A DNA stretch of 64,000 nt from Eledone cirrhosa (GCA_964016885.1 OZ024743.1:177010001-177074000); one strand, 5' to 3'. Positions 26,379-63,088 are shown, counted from the first letter of the stretch. The notes: generated from the letters alone by a model not told the origin. Numbers and translations are program-made.

Positions 26379-26408
26379 GAATATAGACATATATACACAC
26401 ATAGACAC

Positions 26409-26446
<38 letters not shown>

Positions 26447-26650: not shown

Positions 26651-26711
<61 letters not shown>

Positions 26712-28972
26712 CACACATACACATACACACACATATACACATGCATATATACACATATACACATACATACACACACACATATATACTCACACAATCTTAC
26801 ATTCATATTTGTATGCGCATATATGTATTTTTATATTCAGATATAAATACCCAAACATATATACACCTACCTACATATATATTCATACATACACGCTTAC
26901 AAACACAGATGATAATAGTATGGGGGAAAGGGGGGGGTTGGAGAAGGGGATTATAGTAAATATATGTTTCAAGAAGCATAGAATATTATCCGTATCTGGA
27001 TCCAATGTATGTTTTTACATAGTTTCAGTGTTAGGAAATACAATAAACAAGAAATAAGGCAAAATTTATGCATTTCAAAATAAATAAGTATACCATTAAT
27101 TATATGTTAACTAAACTAAAGATAGTTAACATATTGATTTCTAAGGTGTAAATTAGTTAGGTTTATAATATTTGAAGCAGAATTTTGAAGTTAAATAGTA
27201 GTAGAGTATTAATTATAGTATAACTAAATTAAAGTTAATAACGTTATGGTATCAATATTAGGAAATGAATTTAGTAATAGGGAAAAAACAAATAAAGTAT
27301 TACATCGGTAGTAGAATATAAATTATAGGTTAACTAAATTAAAAATTATATATTTATTTCTATAGTATATGTTAATTAGGTATATAATAAATAAAACAGA
27401 TATTGTATTTTATCAATAGCAGAATATAATTATATGCAAATAGAAATCAAAATTAATACATATACATATACATATACATACACATACATATATACATATA
27501 TATACACATATATATATACATATATACACATATACACACACACACACATACACATACACATATACATATACATATTTTTTTCAAAAAATTGCATAGAATA
27601 TATTAACTAGGTATATATCCAAAACACATCCCATTCTATGATTACATGACATTCTGCAATTCGTCTGTATAAGGATACTAATTTTAAGCAAATTAAATTA
27701 AATTTTTAGGTTGATTAAAATTAAAACCAAATTATAAATATATTTCTAAAATGTATATTAATTAGGTCTATAATACTAAAAATTATTTCTCTGTCATTGG
27801 ATACACGATATTATTTTGTTATATTTTATCTGTAAAAGAATTATAATAAAAGGTTTAAATAAATTAAAATTAATCTATAAATTAAATTACTAAGTATATA
27901 TTAGTAATATTTAAAGGTTTTTCACAATTTATGATTACATAATATTTTATATTCTCATCTGTAATAAAATTTTAATTAAATTAAATTTATAGGTTAACCA
28001 ACATTTAAATTAAATTAATTTCTAAAATAATCTTATTAATTAGGTTTATAATATTTAAATGTTTTTTTTAGTTTATGATTACACGATATAATTAATTCCT
28101 GTCGTTTATTTAATAAGATATCCTTAGATTTCATTATTTCAAATAGTTCTTGGGAACATAATCTACATTCATTTCTATTATTTTGATAAGGGGTGGCTCT
28201 TTTGAGCACACTCCAGGTCAAATCATATTCTATATTCTTATTTTTATAACTATTGATTTTTTCTGCTAGAGATGTTGTATTAGCCAGTGCGGCATTTTTA
28301 AAACTATGCTTGTGGGTATTAAACCTTGTCTTAAAATTGTTAGAGGTAGCTCCTATATATGAGCAAATAGAATCTTTAGTTTTAACATTACATTTATAGA
28401 CTATGTTGTTAACAAGACAATTCCCTTTTAATGGGCAGTTTGCTTTGTTTCTACAGTTACATCCTTTCGTTAATTCTGTATTTGAGGAGATATTATGGTT
28501 AATTTGATGTACTGGTGGTATACTTATGGTTTTCTTACATTTATATGCATTATAGGCACTTATATTTTGTTTTATGTTATTTGTTGTAGAGTATGAGAAT
28601 TTAACTGTAGACCTATTTAAGATTTGATGGTATTTGTGGTTTGGCGGGAAGTTTTTCTCTAGGATATAAAAAATTTTTTTAGCAATATTATCCTTAATTT
28701 GTAAATTAAATGGAGCATTATACCAAGTAACCCGTCTATTACGGTTTCTATGTTGTTTATTATTTTTATTATTTTTATAGGTTGTATCGTGATTTTTACT
28801 AGGAGGATTAATGTTAATGATCTCACCACAACCATTTTTAGTTATATTTGTAGATTTAGGTGTTTTATCTTTTTTATTAGGAGTTTTATTATTAATATTT
28901 ATTAGAGTTGTATGATGAGTAGTTTTTTGAGAGTTACTATACTTTATATTAGAAGATTTGGTATTTTGGGGT
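23971..28972 (-). mobile_element. Left arm of the Penelope-like palindrome: 5'-truncated Neptune-type PLE (open linker/GIY-YIG frame 28972-28036, ~4-kb 3' region, hammerhead)
   Basis: Reverse complement of 29351-34368 at about 99% identity outside microsatellite-length differences. The GIY-YIG frame ends ...ECRLCSQELFEI...LLNKRQELIISCNHK. Confidence 0.93.
24033..24186 (-). ncRNA. Type I hammerhead ribozyme (mirror copy of 34153-34306)
   Basis: Reverse complement reads TTCATTATTT-CTGAAGA...GAAA-C-GATC-G-TT-AAATAATGAA. Confidence 0.85.
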
Positions 28973-31613
28973 TTATAATCTTAATATTACTTTTGAAAAA
29001 ACAAGTAAAGTAGTAAATTTCCTAGATATAACTTTAGATTTAGCTACGGGTATCTACCAACCTTACCATAAACCTAACCAAAACTTACATTACATACACT
29101 CACAATCTAATCACCCTAAATCTATCCTTAAAAACCTTGCATATAATATATCACTTAGAATTTCTAACCTTTCTTCTAACCAAGATGTATTTGATAAAAA
29201 TGCGACCTTCTATAACGAAGCTCTAGATAGAAGTGGCCACAAAAATAGATTAGAATATATACCTTCTACTAAAAATACTGAAAGCATACAACCTAATATT
29301 ACCAACAAACACCAAATGAAAAGTACACACCTAAATGCCACCCACACTATACCCCAAAATACCAAATCTTCTAATATAAAGTATAGTAACTCTCAAAAAA
29401 CTACTCATCATACAACTCTAATAAATATTAATAATAAAACTCCTAATAAAAAGGATAAAACACCTAAATCTACAAATATAACTAAAAATGGTTGTGGTGA
29501 GATCATTAACATTAATCCTCCTAGTAAAAATCACGATACAACCTATAAAAATAATAAAAATAATAAACAACATAGAAACCGTAATAGACGGGTTACTTGG
29601 TATAATGCTCCATTTAATTTACAAATTAAGGATAATATTGCTAAAAAAATTTTTTATATCCTAGAGAAAAACTTCCCGCCAAACCACAAATACCATCAAA
29701 TCTTAAATAGGTCTACAGTTAAATTCTCATACTCTACAACAAATAACATAAAACAAAATATAAGTGCCTATAATGCATATAAATGTAAGAAAACCATAAG
29801 TATACCACCAGTACATCAAATTAACCATAATATCTCCTCAAATACAGAATTAACGAAAGGATGTAACTGTAGAAACAAAGCAAACTGCCCATTAAAAGGG
29901 AATTGTCTTGTTAACAACATAGTCTATAAATGTAATGTTAAAACTAAAGATTCTATTTGCTCATATATAGGAGCTACCTCTAACAATTTTAAGACAAGGT
30001 TTAATACCCACAAGCATAGTTTTTAAAATGCCGCACTGGTTAATACAACATCTCTAGCAGAAAAAATCAATAGTTATAAAAATAAGAATATAGAATATGA
30101 TTTGACCTGGAGTGTGCTCAAAAGAGCCACCCCTTATCAAAATAATAGAAATGAATGTAGATTATGTTCCCAAGAACTATTTGAAATAATGAAATCTAAG
30201 GATATCTTATTAAATAAACGACAGGAATTAATTATATCGTGTAATCATAAACTAAAAAAAAACATTTAAATATTATAAACTTAATTAATAAGATTATTTT
30301 AGAAATTAATTTAATTTAAATGTTGGTTAACCTATAAATTTAATTTAATTAAAATTTTATTACAGATGAGAATATAAAATATTATGTATTCATAAATTGT
30401 GAAAAACCTTTAAATATTACTAATATATACTTAGTAATTTAATTTATAGATTAATTTTAATTTATTTAAACCTTTTATTATAATTCTTTTACAGATAAAA
30501 TATAACAAAATAATATCGTGTATCCAATGACAGAGAAATAATTTTTAGTATTATAGACCTAATTAATATACATTTTAGAAATATATTTATAATTTGGTTT
30601 TAATTTTAATCAACCTAAAAATTTAATTTAATTTGCTTAAAATTAGTATCCTTATACAGACGAATTGCAGAATGTCATGTAATCATAGAATGGGATGTGT
30701 TTTGGATATATACCTAGTTAATATATTCTATGCAATTTTTTGAAAAAAATATGTATATGTATATGTGTATGTGTATGTGTGTGTGTGTGTATATGTGTAT
30801 ATATGTATATATATATGTGTATATATATGTATATATGTATGTGTATGTATATGTATATGTATATGTATTAATTTTGATTTCTATTTGCATATAATTATAT
30901 TCTGCTATTGATAAAATACAATATCTGTTTTATTTATTATATACCTAATTAACATATACTATAGAAATAAATATATAATTTTTAATTTAGTTAACCTATA
31001 ATTTATATTCTACTACCGATGTAATACTTTATTTGTTTTTTCCCTATTACTAAATTCATTTCCTAATATTGATACCATAACGTTATTAACTTTAATTTAG
31101 TTATACTATAATTAATACTCTACTACTATTTAACTTCAAAATTCTGCTTCAAATATTATAAACCTAACTAATTTACACCTTAGAAATCAATATGTTAACT
31201 ATCTTTAGTTTAGTTAACATATAATTAATGGTATACTTATTTATTTTGAAATGCATAAATTTTGCCTTATTTCTTGTTTATTGTATTTCCTAACACTGAA
31301 ACTATGTAAAAACATACATTGGATCCAGATACGGATAATATTCTATGCTTCTTGAAACATATATTTACTATAATCCCCTTCTCCACCCCCCCCCCTTTCC
31401 CCCATACTATTATCATCTGTGTTTGTAAGCGTGTATGTATGAATATATATGTAGGTAGGTGTATATATGTTTGGGTATTTATATCTGAATATAAAAATAC
31501 ATATATGCGCATACAAATATGAATGTAAGATTGTGTGAGTATATATGTGTGTGTGTATGTATGTGTATATGTGTATATATGCATGTGTATATGTGTGTGT
31601 ATGTGTATGTGTG

Positions 31614-31698
<85 letters not shown>

Positions 31699-31902
31699 GT
31701 GTGTGTATGTATGTATGTATATGTGTGTGTGTATATATATGTATGTCTCTCTATTTATATGTCTATCTTCGTATCTATGTGGATATATGTGTGTGTGTGC
31801 ATGTATACACATATATGTGTTTATGTGTATATGTGTGTATGTGTATATATGTGTGTGTGCACACACATATATATGTGAGTGTGTATATGTGTCTGTGTAT
31901 AT

Positions 31903-31937
<35 letters not shown>

Positions 31938-31968
31938 GGTGTCTATGTGTGTATATATGTCTATATTC

Positions 31969-32045
<77 letters not shown>

Positions 32046-32267
32046 ATTTATTATTATAATATAACTTATGTGTATGTGTGTATATGTGAGGGAGTGTATA
32101 TGTATATAATATGTGTATATATATGTGTAAAAAAATATATATGTGCATGTCTGTTTTTTATGTGTGTGTATATATATATATATGTGTGTATATATATGTA
32201 TATGTGGGTGTTTGTATGTGTATTTATGGTGGTATGTGTGTGTGGGTATGTATATATATATATAAGT

Positions 32268-32311
<44 letters not shown>

Positions 32312-32644
32312 ATATATATCTCTATTAATGCGTGTATATATGTATATGCATATGCCTTTTTATTTTTATTTGTATGTCTGAGTTGGGTGAGGTTGTAGTG
32401 GTGTTTCTATGTATATACGCATATATGGATGCGTATGTATTTGTATATATGAGTATATGTAAGTGCATATGTATGTATGATTATATATCTAATTCTATGT
32501 ATGAATATATATGTGTGTATGTAAGTTGTGTGTGTATGTATGTATATGTCTATGTGTGTATATATATATGTATGTATGTGTGTGTATGTATCTATGTATG
32601 TGTATGTATGTACATATATGTCTATGTATGTGTGTATGTATATG

Positions 32645-32693
<49 letters not shown>

Positions 32694-32944
32694 TTATTAT
32701 TTATTTTTTATATATATGTGTGTGTGTGTATGTGTGTGTGTGTGTGTGTGTATATATATCTTTATATATGTGTATGTGTATGTTCGTGTAGGTGTATGTG
32801 TGTGTATGACTTTATATGTATGTGTGTATGTGTGTATGCGTATATATTTCTATGTGTGTGTACATGTATGTATGTGTATGTATGTGTATGTGTGTGTATG
32901 TGTATATGTATATATATATATATATGTATATATATATGTATATA

Positions 32945-32975
<31 letters not shown>

Positions 32976-33270
32976 CTATATGTTTTTCTATTTGTATATG
33001 TATGTGTGTATAGGTATATACCTTTTTCTTTGTATGTCTGAGTTGTGTGATAGTGTAGTGGTGTTTGTATGTATATACCGATATATAGATGCGTAAGTAT
33101 TTGTCTGTATGTATGTATGTATGTCTGTATGTATTTGTGTGTATATATAGCTATGTATGTGTATATCTGTATGTATATAAGTATGTAAGTGTATGTATAT
33201 GTGCGTGTATGTGTGTATATATATGTGTCTATATAGTATGTGTGATTATATGTGTATGTATGTGTGTATG

Positions 33271-33323
<53 letters not shown>

Positions 33324-33469
33324 ATTTATATGTATGTGTGTATATGTATGTATGTGTGTATATGTATATGTTTATATATGTGTGTGTATGTATGTTCTTA
33401 GTGTGGATGTGTGTATATGTATGTATGTGTTTGTATATGTGTATATATATGTATGTGTGTGTGTGTGTG

Positions 33470-33523
<54 letters not shown>

Positions 33524-34500
33524 CTTGATATATTTCTTTTTTCTCTTTTCTTTTTCTATTCTTTCCTCTTTAATGTTTATTTATTATTTATTATTTTTTA
33601 TTTTCTTAGTTTATAGATACATCTATATTAAGCAGTCTGCCCAGACCGTTGAATACTGACCTCTCCCCCCCCCCTCCCACCTAATTTCTGTATCTTGATC
33701 TAAATGTGTGTGCCAGTGTTTATGTGAGTGAATTAATATCCATGTGCTTATGATTTTATATCCACATATATATATGTGAGTGGGGGTGTGTGTGTGTTTG
33801 TATGTTCGTGGTTATGTGTATATTTATGCATATACGCGCGTGTATGTGTGATTGTACGGATATGTGTGAGTATGAAAATATATCTATACACTTATTTCAT
33901 ATTTGTGTGTCTATACGCATCTTATCTGTGCATTATAAACTTACAGAGACATTAACCTTGAAATTTTGTATTTGCATCCATCCTTTTAGTATGCGTATAC
34001 AAGTTATGCATACATTTTTGTAAAATATGTGTAAGGGTTTTACATGTATATACACACACCGAACTGCATTAAACCTTTTGTATTTTCATTGGTCAATTTT
34101 GTTCCCAAACGGACCTGAAATTTTGAATTGTTGTTATTATCAATAAATATACTTCATTATTTCTGAAGACGGCGTATATATGTGTTGGTATGTATATTTA
34201 ATCTTGATAGTTTGTATAATTTTGTATAATTTTGTACATAGATCTGTTGAATATGCATGCCAATTCTAACACATATATATCCTAGAAACGATCGTTAAAT
34301 AATGAACTTTTTTTGTTTAATATAAGGAACTGTCTCATTGTTTATTCATTATTTGTTTAATATTTTATCTTGACTCTGTATACCGTTTATCTTTCACCGA
34401 AAGTGATTTTTCATTACATCTCTTCTTTCCATGATATCCGGAATACATTGAGTTCTTCATACGGATTGGACACTACCGTAAACTCTTGGTAGATTTATCT
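28973..34500 (+). mobile_element. Right arm plus spacer: 5'-truncated Neptune-type PLE (RT thumb, Zn-linker, GIY-YIG; nonsense codon at 30024-30026), long 3' region and pLTR
   Basis: Spacer translates VVNFLDITLDLATGIYQPYHKPNQNLHYIHSQSNHPKSILKNL, continuing into RVTWYNAPF, CNCRNKANCPLKGNC and IVYKC...SYIGATSNNFKTRFNTHK. Confidence 0.93.
34153..34306 (+). ncRNA. Type I hammerhead ribozyme with a 115-nt extended stem II; predicted cleavage after GUU at 34296
   Basis: Perfect 10-bp stem I TTCATTATTT/AAATAATGAA; core CTGAAGA; stem II TATATATGTGTTGG/CTAACACATATATA; GAAA; stem III AC-GATC-GT. Confidence 0.88.
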
Positions 34501-37526: not shown

Positions 37527-40500
37527 TTAGGTAAGGCGGGTCTTCTCTGTTACTGAGTACCGCCAAAGGTCTCGGTCCAGTGACATTGTCTTGGAGAGGT
37601 GTAAGTGTGTGATGTCGGAGTTTATCAGCTCGTCCCAGGTTTTTCTAGGTCTGCCTATTCCGTGACTACCGTCTATCTTTATTGCCCTGCACTTTGTTAT
37701 ACAGCTATCGACTTTCATGCGCATCACGTGTCCATACCAACGTAGCCTTCTCTCGAGTAAACAACATCTGATCCCTCTTATCTCTAATTTTTTCCTTAGT
37801 TCGTTTATGCTTTGCCGTTCACGTATATTACTGTTACACATCCAGCGGAGCATGCAAGCTTCGTTCCTCTCTAGTCTGCGTATATCCTCTGCACACAATG
37901 CCCAGGTCTCACTGCCATGCAGCATTGCTGTTCGTATGCAGGCATCGTACAACCTGCCTTTCATTTTTAGTGAGAACCCTTTAGCAGCTAATAGTGGTAT
38001 AAGCTCTCTGAACTTTTTCCAACCAGTTCTGACTCTAGCTACAGTACTTTCAGAGCACCCTCCCCCACTGCTGATTTTATCGCCCAGGTAACGGAAGCTG
38101 TCCACTATTTCTATAGAACCCTCTGCGCAATTGAAAGAGCTAGTATTTTGTGGGCACTTGCTGCTACTTATTGCACCAGAGCACCGGCCACATGTAAAAT
38201 CTATGTTCTTAGTTAGCTTACCTGTGATCCCACTACATCTTTTATGCACCCATACTTTGCATTTAGGACATAAAATGGAGTTTCTACCTACGCCTTTCCT
38301 ACACACCGAGCACGACCATTTCCCAGAAGGGACCGCCGCCTTGTTTTCTTTCCTACAAACTAGTACTTTGGTCTTAGCCAGGTTAATTTTAAGTCCTTTT
38401 GACTCTAGGCCGTGCTTCCATGTTTGGAATTTCTTCTCTAGCTCGGCCATTGATTCCGCTATGAGTGTCAGGTCGTCTGCGTATAGGAGTTCCCATGGGC
38501 AGCCTGTCTTGAACTCCTCTGTTATAGCCTGAAGGGTAATAATAAATAGTAGTGGGCTGAGAACAGAGCCCTGATGGACGCCAACTTTTACGCTAAACTC
38601 TTCACTATATTCGTTGTTAATTCTAACCTTGCTGACTGTTTCTTTATACATGGCTTGTATAGCCCTCACAAGCCATTCGTCAACGCCTAGTTTTCTAAGA
38701 GCCCACCAGATAATGGAGCGGGGGACTCTGTCGAAGGCTTTCTCCAAGTCGACAAAAGCTAAGTAGAGGGGTTTACCTTTAGCTAGGTACTTCTCCTGTA
38801 GTTGTCGTACTATGAAAAGAGCGTCTGTGGTACTTTTGCCTGACACAAACCCGAACTGTATTTCATCTAGGTCAATTCTCTCTCTGATTAGTTGCGCTAT
38901 TACTTTTTCCGTGACCTTCATGACCTGGTCGATTAATTTAATGCCTCTATAGTTACTCCTATCTAGGGCGTCTCCTTTACCCTTATAACAGTTAACGATG
39001 ATGCTGCTATGCCAGTCCTTCGGAACAACCCCATTCTGTACGACTTGGTTAACTATGCGGGTGACCATGGTGTGTCCCACCGTGCCAGATGCCTTCAGCA
39101 TCTCAGCAACTATTTCCGAAGGCCCAGCCGCCTTACCCGTCTTCATATCCTTGATTGCCTTACTTATTATACTCCCCTCGACTAACACTGCTGGTCCCTC
39201 TATTGGGTCGATATGGGGGAGACTGTCTTTCTCCCATTTATTCTCCTCATTTAGTAGCCTTTCATAGTGACACTTCCAAGCTACCTTCTTATCAGCGTCG
39301 GTGATGGCAAGTGTGCCATCGTCGTTTAGTACACACTTCTCCCCGACAATATCACGGTTTTCCTTGACGCATTGCCTAGCAATCCTGAACACCTCACGTT
39401 TTTGGTCATCGCGTTGTAGAACATGCTTGAACTTTCTTTCCTCAGCTTCCCTTCTTGCTAAGTACACTTGTCTCCTAGCTTCCCTCCTGGCCACTTGATA
39501 GTCTTCTCTACTTCCCCCATCCCGTCATACTTTCCAAGCCTGCTTTTTGGCCTTAATTGACCCCTCCACCTTACTGTTCCACCACCATGTTACTCTCCTC
39601 CTGCCTACAGGCCTGCTCCAGCCACAGACTTCGTCTGTCGCCAACAGCAGGTTTGCTTTCAGAAATTCCCACTCTCCCTCTATATTGTCCGACTCTAAAT
39701 GTTCTTCCTTACTGTCGAAAGCATCAAGTAATATGCTTTGAAATTTATTCCTGGCTGTGGGGTCCTTTAGCTTCCATATTTTTCTTCTGAGGATAGTCCT
39801 CTTCTGCTGTCGAGTACGTCTCGTCCTGACTATGAGGTCGCTAATTATCAGTCTATGTTGGGAGGTGCATTCTTCATGGGGGAGGGATTTAGTGTTTACA
39901 ACAGACACTCTGTCACGTCTTCTGGTAAGGATATAATCTACCTGGCTTGTGTGTTCCCCGGATCTATAGGTGATCAGGTGATTGTCACGTTTTTTGAAGT
40001 TAGTGTTACAGATAGTTAGGTTATTTGCATCACAGAATTCCAGGATTCTGGAGCCTTCCTCATTTCTAGTACCAAACCCATAGCCTCCATGGATTTCGTC
40101 GTAGCCGTCACAATGTTGTCCAACGTGACCATTTAGGTCGCCTGCGATAATTATATAGTCACTGTCGGATATTTGGGAGGTAGTTAGCATCAGTGTCTCA
40201 TAGAATCTGTCTTTTATAGTGCCGGGCAGTCCGGATTGGGGTGCGTACGCAGATATTATTGTCACCGTAGTTCTATTGAGGACAAGTCGTATTTTAATTA
40301 TTCTGTCGTTCACTCTATTTACGTCTATTATCTTATCTGCCCACTTTTCTGCTACCATGATTCCTACTCCACCCAGCCCATCGTCGTTTCCCACCCAGAA
40401 AAGCTTATAACATCGTTTTTTACCCTCAATGAACCTAGCAGACCCACCCCTCCACCTGGTCTCTTGAATACAACAAACATCGACCTCCTTACGTTCAAGC

Positions 40501-40565
40501 ATTTCTACAACCTCGTTAGCGCGACCCTTTAGGGTGCCTACATTTATGGTACCAACTCTGAAGTT
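37527..40565 (-). pseudogene. RTE ORF2 (AP endonuclease, reverse transcriptase with embedded PHD finger) interrupted by one in-frame TGA at 39525-39527
   Basis: FRVGTINVGTL...CCIQETRW...AYAPQ...GDLNGHVG...VDYIL...SQHRLI (APE); AWKV*RDGGSREDYQVARRE; NYRGIKL...FVDLEKAFDRV...GVHQGSVLSPLLF...LLYADD...FRYLG (RT). Track ORFs 39525..40502 and 37527..39494 share a frame, 30 nt apart. Confidence 0.95.
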
Positions 40566-40684
40566 TTGGATTGCGTTTGGGGGTTGGGGGCGGTGGGCGA
40601 TGGGGTTATGTTAGCCGTCCGCGGTCGAAACAATGAGTGCTCGCATTCTCGTCCAAGAGGTGAATTTGTCTTTATCTTTGGCAT
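40544..40684 (-). CDS. Putative short RTE ORF1 (46 aa) overlapping the ORF2 start
   Basis: ATG at 40684 gives MPKIKTNSPLGRECEHSLFRPRTANITPSPTAPNPQTQSKTSELVP*. ORF2 has no ATG before its first APE motif. Short overlapping ORF1s are known in RTE elements. Confidence 0.45.
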   Translation of the reverse strand: MPKIKTNSPLGRECEHSLFRPRTANITPSPTAPNPQTQSKTSELVP

Positions 40685-43840: not shown

Positions 43841-44130
43841 CAAATATATATATAAACGTTTGTATATGTATAATAAAGCCAAAACAATGCAGGTATGGAC
43901 ATAGAATAAAGAATGCAAATGCAAAAGATATTGTTGACAATTAGTCTTTTACCTTAGATTTATTTAAATGTCCTTAATTTTCGAGATAATATCTCTTCTT
44001 CGGAGGGAAGTAAAGCGGTTAAACCAGTGTTCTAAATAGCTTGCCAAGTCATGCTGACAGGGAATGGTATAGAGTATCTGTTCTATCTCTAATGTCAAAG
44101 AGTTAAGGTTAGGTGGATAAAGAGTAGTCT

Positions 44131-44398
44131 CTTGATTTCTACAGCTGGATGCCCTTCCTAACATCAACCTCATTTACAGTGAGTGCTGGGTGCTTTTTTG
44201 CCGTGGCACCTCCACGACCACTTTGCAGTGGAATGATAGGGACCCCAGTCCCTATCATCTCATTTCTACAGCTGAGTAAACTGGAGCAATGTGAAATAAA
44301 GTGTCTTGCTCAAGGAAACAACACATCACCCGGTCTGAGAATTGAAATCACAACCTTTCGATTGCAAGGCCAATGCTCTAACCACTAAACCATGTGCC
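44131..44398 (-). mobile_element. tRNA-derived SINE (family A), 3'-incomplete
   Basis: Reverse-complement match to 52214-52558. Confidence 0.85.
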
Positions 44399-44411
44399 TC
44401 CATGTGCCTCT

Positions 44412-46860
44412 ATCTTAACTGTTATTGTTTTGTCGGTGATTTTGCATTTAACTAGGTGTTTCTTAAATGAGGAAGCGATAGTATTGAGGTGTTCTTTTAT
44501 TCTTATGTGGAGTGGTCTGGTGGTGCCACCTACGTTGCTGCATTTGTCGCACTCTAGTCTGTATACGACGTAAGCCTGGTGGCATAGGTCTGTGTCGTTG
44601 ATGGGGCAGTTGGCTAGCCTGCAGCGGTTGTCATGTCTGGTGAAGTGTCTTTTGGTTAGCTGGCCACGTAGAGAAGGACCTGAGTGGGCCAGTTGGATAT
44701 CTAGTCCCTCTCGTTTGATAGCTCTGCGGATGGCTGTTGTTGTTTCGTCACTGAAGTGTGGGAGCCTCGGATGTGGTGTCCTCTGTTCTTTCTGGTACGG
44801 TTTGTGGTGGATGTCGTGTATCCATTCAGTTTGAGTACTTCCAGGAAATGTGTGGTGTGTGTGTCTCGGTCTCTAGCGTCGGTGCATTTGTTCCGGATAC
44901 ATGTTAGTTCATTCCTTATGTATCCAAACTTAGTGCCGGCTGGGAAGGCCGATCTGAAATGTACGAACAGGTCCCTGCTGGCGGCTTTTTTATAGAAGCA
45001 GGTGTGGATGTTGCCTTCCTCTGTTACCCTGAGTTGGAAGTCCAGTAGGGATAGGGATCCGCGGTCATCGGGGTGTTCCATGCTGAACTTTATACTGGCG
45101 TCCATGCTGGAGAATGTTGTGTATATTTTATCCGCCTCCTCACTGGATGATGTAAGGATAAGTATGTCATCTACATATCGGGTGAAGAAGGTATGGGAAT
45201 GGCAGGTGTTGAGGGCTTCTCATTCTAGCTGGTTCATATAGGTGATGGCCAGCAGGCCCGATAGGCTGGAAACCATGGGTAATCCTGTTGTCTGTCTGTA
45301 TGTGTGGTGGTGGAAGGTGAAGTACGTGTTGTCCACTGTGAAGGACAAAAGCTGGTGTATGTCCGTCGGATGGATGCCGTAGCAGTGGATGTCCTCTGCA
45401 ACCAAGCAGTCCGTCAATAAATCGACAGCTGGATGAGCGGGGACTGTAGTGTAGAGGGAGACAACGTGGAGGCTAAAGGCGTATCTATTTAGTTTAAGTT
45501 GTTCTGGCTGCAGTTGGTGCAGTCTACGTATGACTTCGTCGGAGCTACTGACATGCCCGGGAAAGGTGGAGAGTAGAGGCTTGAGGACCTGGGAGAGGAG
45601 CCAGGAAATTTTGTATAGGGGTCCTTCTATGCTAGAGACGATGGGTCTTATTTGTGTCTTAGTACTATTCTTGTGGGTCTTGATGAGGTGGTAGAAAGTG
45701 GGCAGTCTGCTATTTCTAGTGGTGTAGTTGAGCTTAACTTTATTTGGGAGTTGTCTTCTCCTACAGATGTCGAACCAGATGGAGTTGGTCTGTTTTTCGG
45801 TCTGGGCTGCAGTCATGTCCGGGATCTCTGTATATAGTACATTGTCGCTTAGGTGTTCAAAGGCTAGGTTGTTGTATGTGGCTTGAGAGATAACGCAAAA
45901 CTCTTTACCTTTGTCGGATGGTAAGTATATAAGTTCCCTATTCCGTAGGTTCTTCAGGGTGAGTTGTGTCCTAGAGAGGTTTGGGGCTATCTTCTTCTGT
46001 TTCCGTAAGATGTTAAATACGGAATGTTTTAGCCTCGAGAGTTTTTCTTCAAGCTCGCGGTTGGCAGGCGGTGGACAGAGTGGGCGATCCAGTTGGTATA
46101 TCGGGAATCTAGGTTTGTTAGATTCCGTGGTGTTGTTGCCGAGAGTCGATATCCATTTTAGTTGGTAGGCAGCCCGACAGAAATTCGAGCCATAATTTGT
46201 CGTCCAGTCTCTGTTTCAATATGAACTTGGGACCCAGGCTGAGGAGGTCTAATTCCTCTCGGGAGAGGGATCCTGTCAAGTCTGTGACAAGGTGTTTTGC
46301 GTCAGGTGTGTTGTTGGTCGGGGCGCCGCTAGGTTCGGTGTTGGTACCGTCTTGTTCGCATCTGTTGGTGCTTAGAGTTGGGATGTTGTTAAGACGGTTA
46401 GCTGTGTTGAGTTTGAGAAATTTTTGCGTTAGGGGTATTTTCTCGTAGTCTCGGCGATGGTGGTATGTCCTGTCTATAGCGGCGGAGATAACTCTGGACA
46501 GAGGTTCTGGGGTTTCAGCGAGTTGTGGTACAAGGCTGGAAATAGTCCGTATGTGTTGTTGTAGCGTGCAGTGTAGGTGTTGTATGAGTTTTCTTAGGCA
46601 GAATTTTTGTATGTAGCTAAGTGATCGTTTGAGGCCTGGTGATTTGAAGCATGTTGGTAGGTGCAAGATTTTGATGAATATATAAATATTTAATATAGAA
46701 AAGGCTTCTACAGGACTAGAACTGTTTCATTCGGGAGAAATCGTCAGGAATATTTATACTCTGCTTTGTATTGAGTACTTTACTTACTGTGGTTACCCCC
46801 GATTGAACCCGGGATAAACTTATATATCTACCTGGCGAATTCTTTCAAATCCGGATTTGG
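44412..46860 (-). mobile_element. Decayed Penelope-like element (N-terminus, RT, GIY-YIG) with an upstream hammerhead
   Basis: LSREELDLLSLGPKF; PTFYHLIKTHK...IRPIVSS...SLHVVSLYTTVP...YRQTTGLPM...RYVDDILI; VVYRLEC...GGTTRPLHIRIKEH. Frameshifts and stops present. Confidence 0.9.
46706..46750 (-). ncRNA. Hammerhead ribozyme 5' of the PLE ORF
   Basis: TTC-CTGACGA-tTTC-tccc-GAAt-GAAA-CAG...CTG-TA-GAA on the minus strand. Confidence 0.65.
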
Positions 46861-49365: not shown

Positions 49366-50214
49366 CATACATATATATATATATACATATAAATTTTGAG
49401 TATATGTCGGTTGTTTATCGACACCTCAGTATGCAGATTGGAGCACTCAACGAAGTATCCAGGTTGGTTTGTTTACTCCAGAGTAATGTAAAATAATTAA
49501 GTCAAATATGTAAAATTTGGCTTCGTTTATTATAAATTATAGATATACTGCTATATATATTTCGGTGACAGCCATCATTGGCTGTGACCTCTTCAGGCAG
49601 TCAGAATTGGTGTTGAAAAGACAGGTACACATGTTATTGAAGTGTGTTTTACTCCATCAATACATCGATATGTCCAGCTCATGGTTGTGTTGTTATTCCT
49701 CTGAGGAACTAGAATCATATGGTTCCAGTGTGTGTGTAGTAGTGATATATGTATGTATTTAAGTGTGTATGTGTGTGTGTGTGTGGTAGTGATATATGTA
49801 TGTATTTAAGCGTGTGTCTTGTGTGGTAGTTGAAACGGTTGGAGCTCAACTGTCGGTGCGTTCTGGTCTGCCTGGTTTCCCACCATACCCTCTCTGTTAT
49901 ATGTACATATATATATGTGTATGTATATATATGATAAATCATGTCTTTAGAATCATCAGGTAAAATATATACTATTTCTTCTTCTAATTAGCATAATTAA
50001 CCATATAAAAAATCAATTAGAACAAGCTATAAGAATAAATGCTCTTATGGAGAAATCTCCGACAAATAACCGAACGTAGCCTCTTCGCGGTGGCCTCAAT
50101 TGAGTATTTATCCAACATTTCGACAGCATGTAGAAACTGACTAAATATACCATCAACCATACACAATTAGGTGTAAAATTAAACTTAGAAGAAATGCGCA
50201 CATACCGTAATTAT

Positions 50215-50292
50215 ATCTCTACCATGGTTTCTTCCTTATTTTTAGACATCCAAATAATAGGAATGTCCTGAGTTAGGATTCATCAGGAGACA
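50215..50292 (-). ncRNA. Type I hammerhead (mirror copy of 50768-50844)
   Basis: Reverse complement reads GTCTC-CTGATGA-aTCCT...AGGAa-GAAA-C-CATG-G-TA-GAGAT. Confidence 0.78.
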
Positions 50293-52213: not shown

Positions 52214-52558
52214 GGCACATGGCTTAGTGGTTAGAGCATTGGCCTTGCAATTGAAAGGTTGTGAGTTCAATTCTCAGACCGGGTGATGTGTTGTTTCCTT
52301 GAGCAAGACACTTTATTTCACATTGCTCCAGTTTACTCAGCTGTAGAAATGAGATGATAGGGACTGGGGTCCCTATCATTCCACTATAAAGTGGTCGTGG
52401 AGGTGCCACGGCAAAAAAAGCACCCAGCACTCACTGTAAATGAGGTTGGTGTTAGGAAGGGCATCCAGCTGTAGAAATCAAGCCAGAATCAGTTCCCGTC
52501 CCACCCTTGCAAGCAGGGAAAAAGCGGACGTAAAATGAAATGATGAAATCATGATGAT
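52214..52558 (+). mobile_element. Full-length tRNA-derived SINE (family A) with an RTE-like 3' tail
   Basis: A box TGGCTTAGTGG, B box GAGTTCAATTC, central TCCTTGAGCAAGACACTT, and tail GTTGGTGTTAGGAAGGGCATCCAGCTGTAGAAA...GGACGTAAAA(TGA)n shared with the RTE 3' UTRs. Confidence 0.9.
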
Positions 52559-52572
52559 ATATATATATATAT

Positions 52573-54460
52573 ATATATTTAGAAACACACAGATACACGC
52601 GGACACACACATATATACATGAGTGCATCCGCACCCAACTGTGAGTTAAGGGTGCCAACTTCACCGATGTTGCTCAATGAATGACTGGGACAGACCAATT
52701 CAGTTTGAACCAGACTGAACCAGTATCAGAGTTAAAAATACATTATGAAGAGAGAAGAAACATTTAGATATAATTAGTAATAAAATGTATCATACCTAAA
52801 CTGTTCCTAAATTCCTCGACTACGTAGTTTCGTGGCATAAACAAAAACAATATATCAAAGATATAGAGTCCTTGCGAGGTCTGCCAACTTATCAAGAGGA
52901 TACCTCATTTTACTAGTCTCAAGAACGCGTCTACACGGCGTGAGAAAGAATCCCAAAAGGCGGAGGGGGAGATAGTCACGCGATATAACGGTCGAGAAAC
53001 AGAGCTAAGCCTCTTATAACCACGAAGAAAATACCACGGAGGCGGAGGGGGTATTCATATCGAGGCCGCAGAAGAGGTAGTGAAGAAGGCGAGAAGTATG
53101 AGTAATGGAAGCTTTCCAGTTGTCCCCACACTTCAAAGATTGCTCGACCAGAGGGAGTTATTAATATATTTAGAAACACAGATACACGCGGACACACACA
53201 TATATACATGAGTGCATCCGCACCCAACTGTGAGTTAAGGGTGCCAACTTCACCGATGTTGCTCAATGAATGACTGGGACAGACCAATTCAGTTTGAACC
53301 AGACTGAACCAGTATCAGAGTTAAAAATACATTATGAAGAGAGAAGAAACATTTAGATATAATTAGTAATAAAATGTATCATACCTAAACTGTTCCTAAA
53401 TTCCTCGACTACGTAGTTTCGTGGCATAAACAAAAACAATATATCAAAGATATAGAGTCCTTGCGAGGTCTGCCAACTTATCAAGAGGATACCTCATTTT
53501 ACTAGTCTCAAGAACGCGTCTACACGGCGTGAGAAAGAATCCCAAAAGGCGGAGGGGGAGATAGTCACGCGATATAACGGTCGAGAAACAGAGCTAAGCC
53601 TCTTATAACCACGAAGAAAATACCACGGAGGCGGAGGGGGTATTCATATCGAGGCCGCAGAAGAGGTAGTGAAGAAGGCGAGAAGTATGAGTAATGGAAG
53701 CTTTCCAGTTGTCCCCACACTTCAAAGATTGCTCGACCAGAGGGAGTTATTAATATATTTAGAAACACACAGATACACGCGGACACACACATATATACAT
53801 GAGTGCATCCGCACCCAACTGTGAGTTAAGGGTGCCAACTTCACCGATGTTGCTCAATGAATGACTGGGACAGACCAATTCAGTTTGAACCAGACTGAAC
53901 CAGTATCAGAGTTAAAAATACATTATGAAGAGAGAAGAAACATTTAGATATAATTAGTAATAAAATGTATCATACCTAAACTGTTCCTAAATTCCTCGAC
54001 TACGTAGTTTCGTGGCATAAACAAAAACAATATATCAAAGATATAGAGTCCTTGCGAGGTCTGCCAACTTATCAAGAGGATACCTCATTTTACTAGTCTC
54101 AAGAACGCGTCTACACGGCGTGAGAAAGAATCCCAAAAGGCGGAGGGGGAGATAGTCACGCGATATAACGGTCGAGAAACAGAGCTAAGCCTCTTATAAC
54201 CACGAAGAAAATACCACGGAGGCGGAGGGGGTATTCATATCGAGACCGCAGAAGAGGTAGTGAAGAAGGCGAGAAGTATGAGTAATGGAAGCTTTCCAGT
54301 TGTCCCCACACTTCAAAGATTGCTCGACCAGAGGGAGTTATTAATATATTTAGAAACACACAGATACACGCGGACACACACATATATACATGAGTGCATC
54401 CGCACCCAACTGTGAGTTAAGGGTGCCAACTTCACCGATGTTGCTCAATGAATGACTGGG
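52573..54460 (-). repeat. Retrozyme-like 591-bp tandem array, left block (~3.2 units; hammerheads at 52813-52900, 53402-53489, 53993-54080)
   Basis: Period 589/591. Reverse complement of the right block. Confidence 0.95.
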
Positions 54461-57120
54461 TATTTTCTTCGTGGTTATAAGAGGCTTAGCTCTGTTTCTC
54501 GACCGTTATATCGCGTGACTATCTCCCCCTCCGCCTTTTGGGATTCTTTCTCACGCCGTGTAGACGCGTTCTTGAGACTAGTAAAATGAGGTATCCTCTT
54601 GATAAGTTGGCAGACCTCGCAAGGACTCTATATCTTTGATATATTGTTTTTGTTTATGCCACGAAACTACGTAGTCGAGGAATTTAGGAACAGTTTAGGT
54701 ATGATACATTTTATTACTAATTATATCTAAATGTTTCTTCTCTCTTCATAATGTATTTTTAACTCTGATACTGGTTCAGTCTGGTTCAAACTGAATTGGT
54801 CTGTCCCAGTCATTCATTGAGCAACATCGGTGAAGTTGGCACCCTTAACTCACAGTTGGGTGCGGATGCACTCATATATATATGTGTGTGTCCGCGTGTA
54901 TCTGTGTGTTTCTAAATATATTAATAACTCCCTCTGGTCGAGCAATCTTTGAAGTGTGGGGACAACTGGAAAGCTTCCATTACTCATACTTCTCGCCTTC
55001 TTCACTACCTCTTCTGCGGCCTCGATATGAATACCCCTTCCGCCTCCGTGGTATTTTCTTCGTGGTTATAAGAGGCTTAGCTCTGTTTCTCGACCGTTAT
55101 ATCGCGTGACTATCTCCCCCTCCGCCTTTTGGGATTCTTTCTCACGCCGTGTAGACGCGTTCTTGAGACTAGTAAAATGAGGTATCCTCTTGATAAGTTG
55201 GCAGACCTCGCAAGGACTCTATATCTTTGATATATTGTTTTTGTTTATGCCACGAAACTACGTAGTCGAGGAATTTAGGAACAGTTTAGGTATGATACAT
55301 TTTATTACTAATTATATCTAAATGTTTCTTCTCTCTTCATAATGTATTTTTAACTCTGATACTGGTTCAGTCTGGTTCAAACTGAATTGGTCTGTCCCAG
55401 TCATTCATTGAGCAACATCGGTGAAGTTGGCACCCTTAACTCACAGTTGGGTGCGGATGCACTCATGTATATATGTGTGTGTCCGCGTGTATCTGTGTGT
55501 TTCTAAATATATTAATAACTCCCTCTGGTCGAGCAATCTTTGAAGTGTGGGGACAACTGGAAAGCTTCCATTACTCATACTTCTCGCCTTCTTCACTACC
55601 TCTTCTGCGGCCTCGATATGAATACCCCCTCCGCCTCCGTGGTATTTTCTTCGTGGTTATAAGAGGCTTAGCTCTGTTTCTCGACCGTTATATCGCGTGA
55701 CTATCTCCCCCTCCGCCTTTTGGGATTCTTTCTCACGCCGTGTAGACGCGTTCTTGAGACTAGTAAAATGAGGTATCCTCTTGATAAGTTGGCAGACCTC
55801 GCAAGGACTCTATATCTTTGATATATTGTTTTTGTTTATGCCACGAAACTACGTAGTCGAGGAATTTAGGAACAGTTTAGGTATGATACATTTTATTACT
55901 AATTATATCTAAATGTTTCTTCTCTCTTCATAATGTATTTTTAACTCTGATACTGGTTCAGTCTGGTTCAAACTGAATTGGTCTGTCCCAGTCATTCATT
56001 GAGCAACATCGGTGAAGTTGGCACCCTTAACTCACAGTTGGGTGCGGATGCACTCATGTATATATGTGTGTGTCCGCGTGTATCTGTGTGTTTCTAAATA
56101 TATTAATAACTCCCTCTGGTCGAGCAATCTTTGAAGTGTGGGGACAACTGGAAAGCTTCCATTACTCATACTTCTCGCCTTCTTCACTACCTCTTCTGCG
56201 GCCTCGATATGAATACCCCCTCCGCCTCCGTGGTATTTTCTTCGTGGTTATAAGAGGCTTAGCTCTGTTTCTCGACCGTTATATCGCGTGACTATCTCCC
56301 CCTCCGCCTTTTGGGATTCTTTCTCACGCCGTGTAGACGCGTTCTTGAGACTAGTAAAATGAGGTATCCTCTTGATAAGTTGGCAGACCTCGCAAGGACT
56401 CTATATCTTTGATATATTGTTTTTGTTTATGCCACGAAACTACGTAGTCGAGGAATTTAGGAACAGTTTAGGTATGATACATTTTATTACTAATTATATC
56501 TAAATGTTTCTTCTCTCTTCATAATGTATTTTTAACTCTGATACTGGTTCAGTCTGGTTCAAACTGAATTGGTCTGTCCCAGTCATTCATTGAGCAACAT
56601 CGGTGAAGTTGGCACCCTTAACTCACAGTTGGGTGCGGATGCACTCATGTATATATGTGTGTGTCCGCGTGTATCTGTGTGTTTCTAAATATATTAATAA
56701 CTCCCTCTGGTCGAGCAATCTTTGAAGTATGGGGACAACTGGAAAGCTTCCATTACTCATACTTCTCGCCTTCTTCACTACCTCTTCTGCGGCCTCGATA
56801 TGAATACCCCCTCCGCCTCCGTGGTATTTTCTTCGTGGTTATAAGAGGCTTAGCTCTGTTTCTCGACCGTTATATCGCGTGACTATCTCCCCCTCCGCCT
56901 TTTGGGATTCTTTCTCACGCCGTGTAGACGCGTTCTTGAGACTAGTAAAATGAGGTATCCTCTTGATAAGTTGGCAGACCTCGCAAGGACTCTATATCTT
57001 TGATATATTGTTTTTGTTTATGCCACGAAACTACGTAGTCGAGGAATTTAGGAACAGTTTAGGTATGATACATTTTATTACTAATTATATCTAAATGTCT
57101 CTTCTCTCTTCATAATGTAT
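54459..57120 (+). repeat. Retrozyme-like 591-bp tandem array, right block (~4.5 units; hammerheads at 54594, 55185, 55776, 56367, 56958)
   Basis: Exact 591-bp period with only a few substitutions between units. Confidence 0.95.
54594..54681 (+). ncRNA. Type I hammerhead ribozyme with a U3-A8 variant core (one of 8 identical copies); predicted cleavage after GUC at 54676
   Basis: TCCTC-TTGATAA-G-t-TGGCA...TGCCA-C-GAAA-CTACGTAG-TC-GAGGA. All three stems close and the C3-G8 pair is replaced by U3-A8. Confidence 0.88.
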
Positions 57121-57169
57121 ATATATATATATATAGATATACATGTGTGTGTGTATGTATATATATAAG

Positions 57170-61239: not shown

Positions 61240-61430
61240 TGGCGGTGGATTGGCAGTATCGGTAGAGGGTCGGACATGCTTTCCAGCATAGTTACGTCCC
61301 TTAACGATCTGAGTTCAAATCCCGCCGAGGTTAACTTTGCCTTCCATCCTTACGGGGTCGATAAAATAAAGTACCAGTAATGTACTGGATAATTGCTGGC
61401 CTTGTGCTAAAAGTAGAAACAATTATTACT
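61240..61430 (+). mobile_element. SINE family B, second copy
   Basis: Close match to 59412-59600. Confidence 0.85.
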
Positions 61431-61439
61431 ATATGTATA

Positions 61440-63088
61440 GAGAAGTTCCTAGCTAAAGGTAAACCCCTCTACTTAGCTTTTGTCGACTTGGAGAAAGCCT
61501 TCGACAGAGTCCCCCGCTCCATTATCTGGTGGGCTCTTAGAAAACTAGGCGTTGACGAATGGCTTGTGAGGGCTATACAAGCCATGTATAAAGAAACAGT
61601 CAGCAAGGTTAGAATTAACAACGAATATAGTGAAGAGTTTAGCGTAAAAGTTGGCGTCCATCAGGGCTCTGTTCTCAGCCCCCTACTATTTATTATTGCC
61701 CTTCAGGCTATAACAGAGGAGTTCAAGACAGGCTGCCCATGGGAACTCCTATACGCAGACGACCTGACACTCATAGCGGAATCAATGGCCGAGCTAGAGA
61801 AGAAATTCCAAACATGGAAGCACGGCCTAGAGTCAAAAGGACTTAAAATTAACCTGGCTAAGACCAAAGTTCTAGTTTGTAGGAAAGAAAACAAGGCGGC
61901 GGTCCCTTCTGGGAAATGGTCGTGCTCGGTGTGTAGGAAAGGCGTAGGTAGAAACTCCATTTTATGTCCTAAATGCAAAGTATGGGTGCATAAAAGATGT
62001 AGTGGGATCACAGGTAAGCTAACTAAGAACATAGATTTTACATGTGGCCGGTGTTCTGGTGCAATAAGTAGCAGCAAGTGCCCACAAAATACTAGTTCTT
62101 TCAATTGCGCAGAGGGTTCTATAGAAATAGTGGACAGCTTCCGTTACCTGGGCGATAAAATCAGCAGTGGGGGAGGGTGCTCTGAAAGTACTGTAGCTAG
62201 AGTCAGAACTGGTTGGAAAAAGTTCAGAGAGCTTATACCACTATTAGCTGCTAAAGGGTTCTCCCTAAAAATGAAAGGCAGGTTGTACGATGCCTGCATA
62301 CGAACAGCAATGTTGCATGGCAGTGAGACCTGGGCATTGTGTGCAGAGGATATACGCAGACTAGAGAGGAACGAAGCTTGCATGCTCCGCTGGATGTGTA
62401 ACAGTAATATACGTGAACGGCAAAGCATAAACGAACTAAGGAAAAAATTAGAGATAAGAGGGATCAGATGTTGTTTACTCGAGAGAAGGCTACGTTGGTA
62501 TGGACACGTGATGCGCATGAAAGTCGATAGCTGTATAACAAAGTGCAGGGCAATAAAGATAGACGGTAGTCACGGAATAGGCAGACCTAGAAAAACCTGG
62601 GACGAGCTGATAAACTCCGACATCACACACTTACACCTCTCCAAGACAATATCACTGGACCGAGACCTTTGGCGGTACTCAGTAACAGAGAAGACCCGCC
62701 TTACCTAAATATATAGTAAAACCTACTCCAGCCAGTAGGCATCTCTAACAAAATACACCCCGTCCCACCACCCCCACCCCATTCTATGTAAAGTTATGTT
62801 GGTGCCGTGCCATCCAGGCCGAAACAAATGAGATCGTGTAGGTGTCACGACAAAAAAACACACAGTCCACGCTGTAATGTGGCCGTGTAGGCAACACGGT
62901 AAAAACCTCCCAGCCCCACACTGTAAATGTGGTTGGTGTTAGGAAGGGCATCCAACTGTAGAAAACCTGCCAGACAGTCCTATGCGAGCAAGACAATCAC
63001 TCTTGCCTCAAGTGGGACTACCCCCGTCCAAACCCATGCAAGCGTGGAACACGGACGTTAAACGTTGATGATGATGATGATGATGATG
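61440..63088 (+). mobile_element. 5'-truncated RTE copy with an uninterrupted RT/PHD/C-terminal frame, nearly identical to 37132-38795
   Basis: EKFLAKGKPLYLAFVDLEKAFDRV...YADD...TEKTRLT* and a (GAT)n tail. The first ~20 aa of track ORF 61380 come from the SINE and flank. Confidence 0.96.

What the first reader, a model, noticed from the sequence alone, without database searches (positions are those of the whole stretch)
54594..54681. Hammerhead core reads UUGAUAA: compensatory U3-A8 replacing C3-G8, plus a palindromic stem III
Seen: TTGATAA instead of CTGATGA in all 8 copies, with intact stems I-III, GAAA and GUC. Known: positions 3 and 8 form a Watson-Crick tertiary pair, and U3-A8 variants can keep activity. 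Inference: two covarying changes imply selection for catalysis, and a CTGANGA pattern search would miss this family. Self-complementary CTACGTAG in stem III would let adjacent units form a double hammerhead, as known for avocado sunblotch viroid and newt satellite 2.
Basis: partly seen in the sequence, partly recalled or inferred. Interest (0 to 1): 0.75.

Follow-up and report, generated by a model that had tools for sequence, protein, structure and literature searches.

The report
Paired-up hammerhead in Penelope-copied repeat
A 591-base non-coding repeat with thousands of copies in this animal genome carries a predicted self-cutting RNA whose unusual U-A core pair is already in print; the new part is that its short mirror-image helix stayed self-complementary while its sequence changed over time, which suggests that two copies likely pair up to cut.

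Summary
Observation confirmed: eight identical type I hammerhead motifs with core UUGAUAA and a 10-nt palindromic helix III, one per 591-nt unit, in two inverted arms inserted in (TA)n. The family has 7,000-8,000 copies and fits a non-LTR retrozyme with Penelope-like-element (PLE) footprints: in 49 of 50 inverted insertions one arm ends 80 nt and the other 245 nt past the cut site.

U3-A8 is not new: about 1,300 schistosome PLE hammerheads have it. It is fixed here (no C3-G8 copy found), so the 3/8 covariation itself cannot be seen in this lineage, and an unrelated PLE family amplified with C3·A8.

The dimer idea gains real support: across subfamilies down to about 62% identity, stem I changes by two compensated pairs and the helix III centre reads GUAC, GCGC or ACGU, always palindromic, including a central pair no monomer can form. 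Variants shared by all units of an array point to a monomeric, probably circular, template. Cleavage, expression and the partner PLE are not shown.

The scan noted U3-A8 cores and two-armed PLE footprints before on other repeats of this genome.

The parts
52573..57120 (.). Whole insertion: two divergent arms of a 591-nt non-coding tandem unit (42% GC), 8 hammerheads, both ends in (TA)n
52573..54460 (-). Left arm, 3.2 laps; starts at unit position 129, ends at position 245 after the cut site
54459..57120 (+). Right arm, 4.5 laps; starts at unit position 374, ends at position 80 after the cut site
54459..54460 (.). Inversion junction, 2-base overlap between the arms
54594..54681 (+). Type I hammerhead motif of the finding (stem I 54594-54598 with 54677-54681; predicted cut between 54676 and 54677)
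54599..54605 (+). Core U3-U4-G5-A6-U7-A8-A9 (U3-A8 variant)
54606..54662 (+). Long stem II (57 nt) closed by G10.1-C11.1; the bulge after the second pair is U in 768 matches and C in most other copies
54666..54675 (+). Palindromic helix III ACUACGUAGU; centre reads GCGC or GUAC in more diverged subfamilies
54677..55267 (+). One cut-site-to-cut-site monomer (591 nt), the predicted circular RNA
   Evidence: circle inferred
54686..54756 (+). Predicted hairpin (unit 10-62) followed by fixed 3' end A at unit position 80; inferred start site of reverse transcription
54847..54921 (+). Predicted hairpin (unit 171-234) followed by fixed 3' end B at unit position 245; inferred second start site
55185..55272 (+). 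Hammerhead copy
55776..55863 (+). Hammerhead copy
56367..56454 (+). Hammerhead copy
56958..57045 (+). Hammerhead copy
53993..54080 (-). Hammerhead copy
53402..53489 (-). Hammerhead copy
52813..52900 (-). Hammerhead copy
52557..52578 (.). (TA)n target remnant, left (overlaps the arm end)
57118..57135 (.). (TA)n target remnant, right (overlaps the arm end)

Best explanation
This is one insertion of a high-copy non-coding tandem repeat (a non-LTR retrozyme) whose U3-A8 hammerhead motif is predicted to cut its own RNA mainly when two copies pair through the palindromic helix III, releasing 591-nt monomers that would be circularised and are likely copied back into (TA)n DNA by the enzyme of a Penelope-like element. 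Step 1 (inferred): arrays are transcribed on the hammerhead strand as multimers. Step 2 (predicted): two neighbouring motifs fold as a double hammerhead with a 10-bp helix III and cut after GUC. A lone motif has only a 3-bp helix III and rarely adopts the active fold, which would spare the monomer. Step 3 (inferred by analogy with mussel and axolotl retrozymes): a host ligase closes the monomer. Step 4 (anatomy shown, enzyme inferred): a PLE protein nicks both strands of a (TA)n tract and starts reverse transcription at two fixed internal sites, 80 and 245 nt past the cut, one per strand. Each cDNA runs up to about five laps, and the two join at a short overlap, giving two inverted arms. U3-A8 is a fixed family trait older than the most diverged subfamily found, not a recent compensatory event.
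For: Structure under selection: in 47 hammerheads of all subfamilies, 97.5% of cells pair against 31-55% for slid controls; two stem I pairs and both central helix III pairs change on both sides; the 3-8 pair is U-A in 46 of 47. Palindrome centre: 7,991 matches start with A, 97 of the first 100 ACGT; of the first 100 of 211 others, 39 are GTAC and 33 GCGC (counted by hand), and these sort into subfamilies on a tree built with those four columns masked. Chance that two further states are both palindromic is about 0.003. Folding: double hammerhead -205.4 against two monomer-active folds -192.7 kcal/mol in a two-motif transcript; helix III hairpin +1.5 against duplex -12.9; active fold about 0.4% of the monomer ensemble. 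PLE footprint: 151 of 162 arms in 100 loci end at about 80 or about 245; 49 of 50 classifiable inverted pairs have one of each (p 5e-14). Two autonomous PLE families here show the same rule with their own sites, and the pattern is described in PMC8557442 and PMC11167929. Monomer template: median 0 differences within arrays against 7 between; in L144 seven variants are present in all 7-8 covering units, six of them locus-private and seen in both arms. Single-unit changes are strand-biased (T>C 17, A>G 2; p 0.008), as separate reverse-transcription passes would give.
Against: No cleavage, ligation or expression data: no listed holder was on record as RNA. 5' truncations do not pile up at the cut site (2 of 151 within 3 nt, 1.8 expected), so there is no genomic trace of cut linear RNA; this fits a circle and an uncut multimer equally. 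In vitro a PLE inserted uncut RNA and did not need its hammerhead (PMC11167929). An unrelated Hydra-type family amplified with C3·A8, and the window's own PLE family mostly carries a U4C core (51 of 68 motif hits, overlapping loci counted). Even the double-hammerhead fold lies 4.8 kcal/mol above the unconstrained minimum. The compensated changes are about four events on one lineage, not 57 independent ones, and shuffles matched the number of changed pairs in 199 of 500 runs. The CG/TA centre change could arise from CpG decay if it ran CG to TA; the tree is unrooted. No partner PLE sharing sequence with the unit was found. Full-length PLEs also form multi-copy tandems, so tandem arms alone do not prove a circle.
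Confidence: 0.62

Rival explanations
1. The repeat is copied by a PLE enzyme from uncut multimeric transcripts, with template jumping making extra laps; the U3-A8 hammerhead is weak and only marginally useful.
For: Uncut RNA was the main substrate of a PLE in vitro (PMC11167929). Minimal PLE hammerheads cut poorly (PMC4209133). Eight of nine frog retrozyme dimers did not cut (bioRxiv 10.64898/2026.07.22.740005). No truncations at the cut site. C3·A8 amplified in another family.
Against: Core, GAAA, GUC, stem I and the palindrome were kept through about 35% divergence while free position 7 and loop II changed. Private variants fill whole arrays, which needs a one-unit bottleneck.
Confidence: 0.22
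2. The motif cuts well enough as a monomer (3-bp helix III with a four-base loop, long stem II), and the palindrome is incidental or serves something else.
For: The monomer-active fold is only 1.6 kcal/mol above the minimum-energy fold. Most invertebrate retrozyme hammerheads are reported to cut efficiently, with dimer dependence mainly in amphibians (PMC7229834 abstract passage). The CG/TA change has a possible CpG route.
Against: All three amplified centre states are palindromic, and non-palindromic states are scattered copies. The central pair cannot form within one hairpin.
Confidence: 0.12
3. An ordinary satellite built by DNA-level duplication, carrying a decayed hammerhead relic in which U3 and A8 are two chance mutations.
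For: Rfam finds no hammerhead; the eight copies are one event.
Against: Thousands of dispersed short arrays with fixed 3' ends, variable 5' ends and inverted arms in (TA)n; compensated stems; single mutants at positions 3 and 8 are rare and scattered (12 and 15).
Confidence: 0.02

Closest known systems
Metazoan non-LTR retrozymes (Cervera and de la Pena 2020, PMC7229834, passages and Discussion read; Li, Clavereau and Pollet 2026, bioRxiv 10.64898/2026.07.22.740005, parts 1-3 of 5 read)
   Same: Non-coding, low-GC tandem units with one type I hammerhead each; thousands of copies; proposed circular intermediate and PLE mobilisation; dimer-dependent cutting in axolotl.
   Different: Unit of 591 nt (about 170-400 in the 2020 paper, within 51-972 in the preprint); U3-A8 core and 57-nt stem II; inverted arms with two fixed 3' ends, not described for retrozymes in the parts read; RNA not shown here.
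U3-A8 minimal hammerheads of Schistosoma mansoni Cercyon PLEs (Cervera and de la Pena 2014, PMC4209133, parts 1-2 of 4 read)
   Same: Same U3-A8 core (about 1,300 hits there), type I, palindromic helix III region proposed to work as a dimer, motifs found close together on opposite strands.
   Different: Those have almost no helix III, are heterogeneous and mostly single. This one has a 10-nt palindrome, a very long stem II, sits in every unit of a protein-free tandem array, and shows compensatory change of the palindrome.
Natural U3-A8 hammerheads of Perreault et al. 2011 (PMC3088659, passages read)
   Same: States that C3-G8 covaries to U3-A8 in several natural examples and that such ribozymes had been shown active in vitro.
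   Different: Which topology or hosts those examples have was not in the passages read; no link to a retroelement there.
Penelope-like elements with tail and inverted arm: Hydra, Neptune, Naiad (Craig et al. 2021, PMC8557442, passages, section 11 and supplement rows read) and PAc of anole (Frangieh et al. 2024, PMC11167929, parts 1-2 of 4 read)
   Same: (TA)n or AT-rich target, 5'-truncated inverted arm, tail at one end only, two internal start sites of reverse transcription downstream of a hammerhead.
   Different: No protein; tail of 165 nt rather than 30-40 nt (40 and 83 nt for two PLE families in this genome); no sequence shared with the two PLE families tested.
Double hammerheads of avocado sunblotch viroid and newt satellite 2 (Forster et al. 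1988; title seen in a reference list; model as summarised in PMC4209133; details recalled)
   Same: Unstable monomeric helix III replaced by a longer helix between two motifs; proposed to let multimers cut while sparing monomeric circles.
   Different: Canonical C3-G8 cores (recalled); here the support is phylogenetic and computed, not kinetic.

Membership tests
Type I hammerhead ribozyme | Core 3-9 with a Watson-Crick 3-8 pair, G12-A13-A14, A15.1-U16.1, NUH cut site | tested here: met
   UUGAUAA, GAAA, GUC; U3-A8 in 46 of 47 aligned copies
Type I hammerhead ribozyme | Three helices around the core, stem I open, supported by compensatory change | tested here: met
   97.5% cells paired; stem I pairs UA/CG/UG at two positions; stem II base pairs conserved without change on both sides
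Type I hammerhead ribozyme | Match to an Rfam hammerhead model | tested here: not met
   No hammerhead family at E up to 1 over the window or up to 10 locally; variant core and long stem II are the likely reason
Type I hammerhead ribozyme | Site-specific self-cleavage | not testable with these tools
   No kinetics; no RNA run listed; no truncation pile at the cut site
Type I hammerhead ribozyme | Loop 1-loop 2 tertiary contact of canonical motifs | not tested
   Stem II is 57 nt with internal loops; no contact was modelled
Double (dimeric) hammerhead | Weak monomeric helix III with a palindrome able to form a helix between two motifs | tested here: met
   Hairpin +1.5, duplex -12.9 to -16.9 kcal/mol for the three amplified states; centre covaries
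Double (dimeric) hammerhead | Faster cutting as dimer than as monomer | not testable with these tools
   Needs transcription assays
Non-LTR retrozyme | Tandem repeats with a type I hammerhead in each unit | tested here: met
Non-LTR retrozyme | No protein-coding capacity, GC below 50% | tested here: met
   Only one stop-free frame of 100 codons or more (112, minus strand of one copy); no blastp hit of six-frame translations to the PLE proteins at hand; GC 249 of 591
Non-LTR retrozyme | Expressed as linear and circular monomeric RNA | not testable with these tools
   No RNA holder listed; circle inferred from array homogeneity
Non-autonomous Penelope-like element | 5'-truncated inverted arm and a tail at one end only | tested here: met
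   58 inverted pairs in 100 loci; 49 of 50 classifiable have one end at about 80 and one at about 245; the tail is longer than the published 30-40 nt
Non-autonomous Penelope-like element | (TA)n target preference | tested here: met
   3' ends run into (TA)n in nearly all printed flanks; not counted formally
Non-autonomous Penelope-like element | Sequence kinship with the terminal repeat of an autonomous PLE | tested here: inconclusive
   Only low-complexity matches to two PLE families; the other families among 12,554 and 60,722 first-look candidates were not examined

The most novel reading that the evidence does not exclude
The weak U3-A8 core plus the covarying 10-nt palindrome make a multimer-only switch: the ribozyme cuts tandem transcripts as a double hammerhead but leaves the monomeric circle intact, and a dimeric Penelope enzyme then runs round that one circle from two start sites 165 nt apart. 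The ladder of subfamilies (GUAC, GCGC, ACGU) would be a natural record that double hammerheads are under selection in a living animal, and gives ready-made natural variants to test it.
Probability: 0.4. Interest if true: 0.65.

Novelty: new member of a known kind. Interest (0 to 1): 0.42.

Why it matters
Whether the hammerheads of animal retrozymes and Penelope-like elements cut in vivo, and whether they must do so as dimers, is open: published activities are low or context dependent, and one PLE did not need its ribozyme in vitro. This family offers comparative evidence, not found in my eight paper searches, that a palindromic helix III is kept self-complementary through sequence change, together with insertion footprints of how such RNAs are copied. 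It also shows that hammerhead censuses tied to CUGANGA or Rfam miss families of thousands of copies. The U3-A8 core by itself is ordinary.

Tried and rejected
Rfam: no hammerhead hit; only microsatellite-driven miRNA-type matches below gathering scores and one weak tRNA-like match.

Search for a C3-G8 relative: none with the family's flanks. A long-stem-II C3-G8 pattern gave 3 matches from other families with no sequence likeness to the unit. Searches gave 0 only because they fixed the minority bulge base.

Fossil cut marks at 5' truncations: absent. A cluster of 7 starts at unit positions 576-588 was noted and not tested.

GCGT as a wobble intermediate: rejected, because the four GCGT rows fall within the ACGT clade. 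GTGC is unresolved.

A>G excess among array-fixed private variants (11 against 3 T>C) as RNA-editing scars: only 5 against 3 loci, so a hint only.

Partner PLE: the window's PLE family and a young Hydra-type family share the two-end rule but no sequence. My scan missed that family's minimal motif; corrected.

Public runs: no RNA holder listed. Contigs of four runs of unknown kind were laid on the motif; they listed no other letter at core positions 3 or 8 and say nothing on expression.

The pair count used a misregistered structure and is discarded; it was redone.

An assembly artefact for the inversion is rejected, since junctions differ between loci while the 3' ends are fixed.

Lunse et al. 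(PMC5785218) and Przybilski and Hammann 2007 (PMC1986816) could not be read; only their titles were seen in reference lists. Supplements of PMC4209133, PMC7229834 and the bioRxiv preprint were not seen and may list this kind of motif or host.

Full report
OBSERVATION. The stretch 54594-54681 is a complete type I hammerhead motif: stem I TCCTC/GAGGA, core TTGATAA, a 57-nt stem II region closed by G-C with a bulge after the second pair, GAAA, the palindrome ACTACGTAGT and a GUC cut triplet. Eight copies, identical over 120 nt, lie 591 nt apart (one 589), five on + and three on -. They are one insertion, 52573-57120, made of two divergent arms that overlap by 2 bases and end in (TA)n. Rfam gives no hammerhead match. 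The genome is 3.0 Gb; its repeats recall a cephalopod, a recalled resemblance that I did not test.

FAMILY SIZE AND THE 3-8 PAIR. Exact patterns give 7,216 matches on the 5' side, 6,975 across stem II and 7,991 plus 211 on the 3' side; reversed controls give 0 or 1. The window's subfamily, with U at the stem II bulge, has 768 matches. With family flanks fixed, 12 copies have another base at position 3, all with A8, and 15 have U3 with another base at position 8; none is C3-G8. These are scattered copies, as decay after insertion would give. In more diverged subfamilies found through helix III or through position 7, down to about 62% identity with the unit, the core stays U3-A8 while free position 7 changes; 46 of 47 aligned copies are U-A and one is C·A. 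Those 47 exclude copies truncated before the core and were partly found with core-containing patterns. So U3-A8 is a fixed, old trait, and the change from C3-G8 is not visible in this lineage. Long-stem-II motifs with C3-G8 exist in other families but share no sequence with the unit. Against a strict need for the pair, a young Hydra-type PLE family in this genome has 80 U3-A8 and 20 C3·A8 among its first 100 of 3,828 matches (counted by hand; ORF link).

WHAT IS IN PRINT. Perreault et al. report natural U3-A8 in several examples, active in vitro (PMC3088659, passages). Cervera and de la Pena report about 1,300 U3-A8 minimal hammerheads linked to Cercyon PLEs of S. mansoni, describe the dimer model, and found low activity (PMC4209133). 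A pairwise mutagenesis study found that only the G-C swap rescued this pair in its construct (PMC9901934, passages), so activity of U3-A8 depends on context. Non-LTR retrozymes are expressed as circles in coral, mussel and axolotl, with PLEs proposed as movers (PMC7229834; bioRxiv 10.64898/2026.07.22.740005). Eight searches listed no paper on cephalopod retrozymes or on compensatory change of a palindromic helix III. Two key papers were not held, and supplements I did not see may bear on this.

SELECTION ON THE FOLD AND THE DIMER. On 47 copies, 97.5% of cells pair against 31-55% for slid controls. Stem I walks through TTCCC/GGGAA, TTCTC/GAGAA, TTCTC/GAGGA (U·G) and TCCTC/GAGGA. The four central bases of helix III are ACGT in 97 of the first 100 of 7,991 matches. 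Among the first 100 of 211 others they are GTAC 39, GCGC 33, GCGT 13, GTGC 5, other 10. On a tree built without those columns, GCGC and GTAC mark their own subfamilies and the GCGT rows fall among ACGT copies. All three amplified states are palindromes (chance about 0.003 for two further states). The central two bases cannot pair within one hairpin, so their CG/UA change points to a helix between two motifs. Folding agrees: hairpin +1.5, duplex -12.9 kcal/mol; in a two-motif transcript the double hammerhead is 12.7 kcal/mol more stable than two monomer-active folds, though 4.8 above the free minimum; the monomer's active fold is about 0.4% of its ensemble. Limits: these are about four events on one lineage; shuffles matched the count of changed pairs in 199 of 500 runs; the tree is unrooted; CG to TA could come from CpG decay if the change ran that way; the energies omit tertiary contacts.

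HOW IT MOVES. I mapped 100 loci: mostly the first ones listed on the two largest contigs, 12 picked for a mutation at position 3, and the window; one duplicate locus and edge-cut arms were dropped. Of 162 arms, 76 end at about unit position 80, 75 at about 245 and 11 elsewhere. Of 58 inverted arm pairs, 50 have both ends classifiable, and 49 have one of each (p 5e-14). Junctions overlap by 1-11 bases in 40, are blunt in 9 and gapped in 9. 82 arms exceed one lap, up to 4.9. Both ends follow predicted hairpins that the more diverged units also form. This is the inverted arm with a tail at one end described for PLEs (PMC8557442) and traced to two internal start sites of reverse transcription (PMC11167929). 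Two autonomous PLE families here follow the same rule with tails of 40 and 83 nt, but neither shares sequence with the unit, so the partner is not identified.

TEMPLATE. In 20 arrays with two or more full units, units differ by a median of 0 bases within and 7 between arrays; 11 arrays carry a locus-private variant in every unit, 3 of them across both arms. In L144 seven variants, five of them A>G, are in all 7-8 covering units. Changes confined to one unit favour T>C over A>G by 17 to 2, in 13 against 2 loci (p 0.008), which fits separate passes of a reverse transcriptase rather than DNA duplication (inference). A one-unit bottleneck followed by many laps is simplest on a circle, but repeated template jumping on a linear RNA is not excluded. 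5' ends do not pile up at the cut site (2 of 151, 1.8 expected), so cut linear monomers are not the usual template.

EARLIER NOTES. My analysis of ends preceded the look-up. The scan had already noted two-armed Penelope footprints on 310-, 422- and 467-nt repeats of this genome, and U3-A8 cores in other families here and elsewhere. A look-up by this sequence found nothing. These notes gave me the Hydra lead and the C3·A8 caution, which I checked.

VERDICT. A real, selected hammerhead fold in a new family of a known kind of element. The headline feature, U3-A8, is known. Cleavage and circles remain inferred. Interest 0.42.

Noticed in passing
window 49528-49602 (-): A second, unrelated type I hammerhead motif with canonical C3-G8 core (CTGAAGA), palindromic ATATATAT helix III and AUA triplet; a close relative lies in L261.
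   Followed up: partly
window 43969-46726 (-): Broken Penelope-like element (RT and GIY-YIG-type pieces) of a family with many intact ~900-aa copies; two fixed 3' ends 40 nt apart in (TA)n; a minimal hammerhead-like motif at 43969-44009 with U4C core in 51 of 68 motif hits and canonical core in most others (overlapping loci counted).
   Followed up: partly
L280-L289 (G000:C1:437199000-437216500 and others): Very young Hydra-type PLE (784-codon frame, 3,531-nt unit, at least four full-length tandem copies at one locus) with a long-stem U3-A8 hammerhead and an 83-nt tail; a subfamily amplified with C3·A8.
   Followed up: partly
L265, L266, L267, L227: Further long-stem-II hammerhead families with C3-G8 cores and near-palindromic helix III; a fragment resembling the L265 flank lies at window about 50100-50290 (-).
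   Followed up: no
window 23970-34370: Near-perfect 10.4-kb palindrome (two 5-kb arms, 98.4% identical) of AT-rich microsatellite-like DNA; could be another inverted-arm insertion or an assembly feature.
   Followed up: no
window 5-9606: Satellite of 52-bp units, about 185 copies.
   Followed up: no
window 37527-40610 (-) and 61365-62708 (+): Two near-identical copies of a LINE-type element with RT and PHD-like finger frames; the first also has an endonuclease frame.
   Followed up: partly
unit positions 576-588 (L033, L040, L051, L088, L096, L135, L139): Seven 5' truncations fall on GAAA and the palindrome rather than at the cut site; 5' ends also cluster at positions 326-425. Not tested statistically.
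   Followed up: no
window 54586-54598: GAGG just upstream can pair with the 5' strand of stem I (GAGG-UAU-CCUC), a possible competing hairpin; the upstream GAGGT is kept in most subfamily copies.
   Followed up: no
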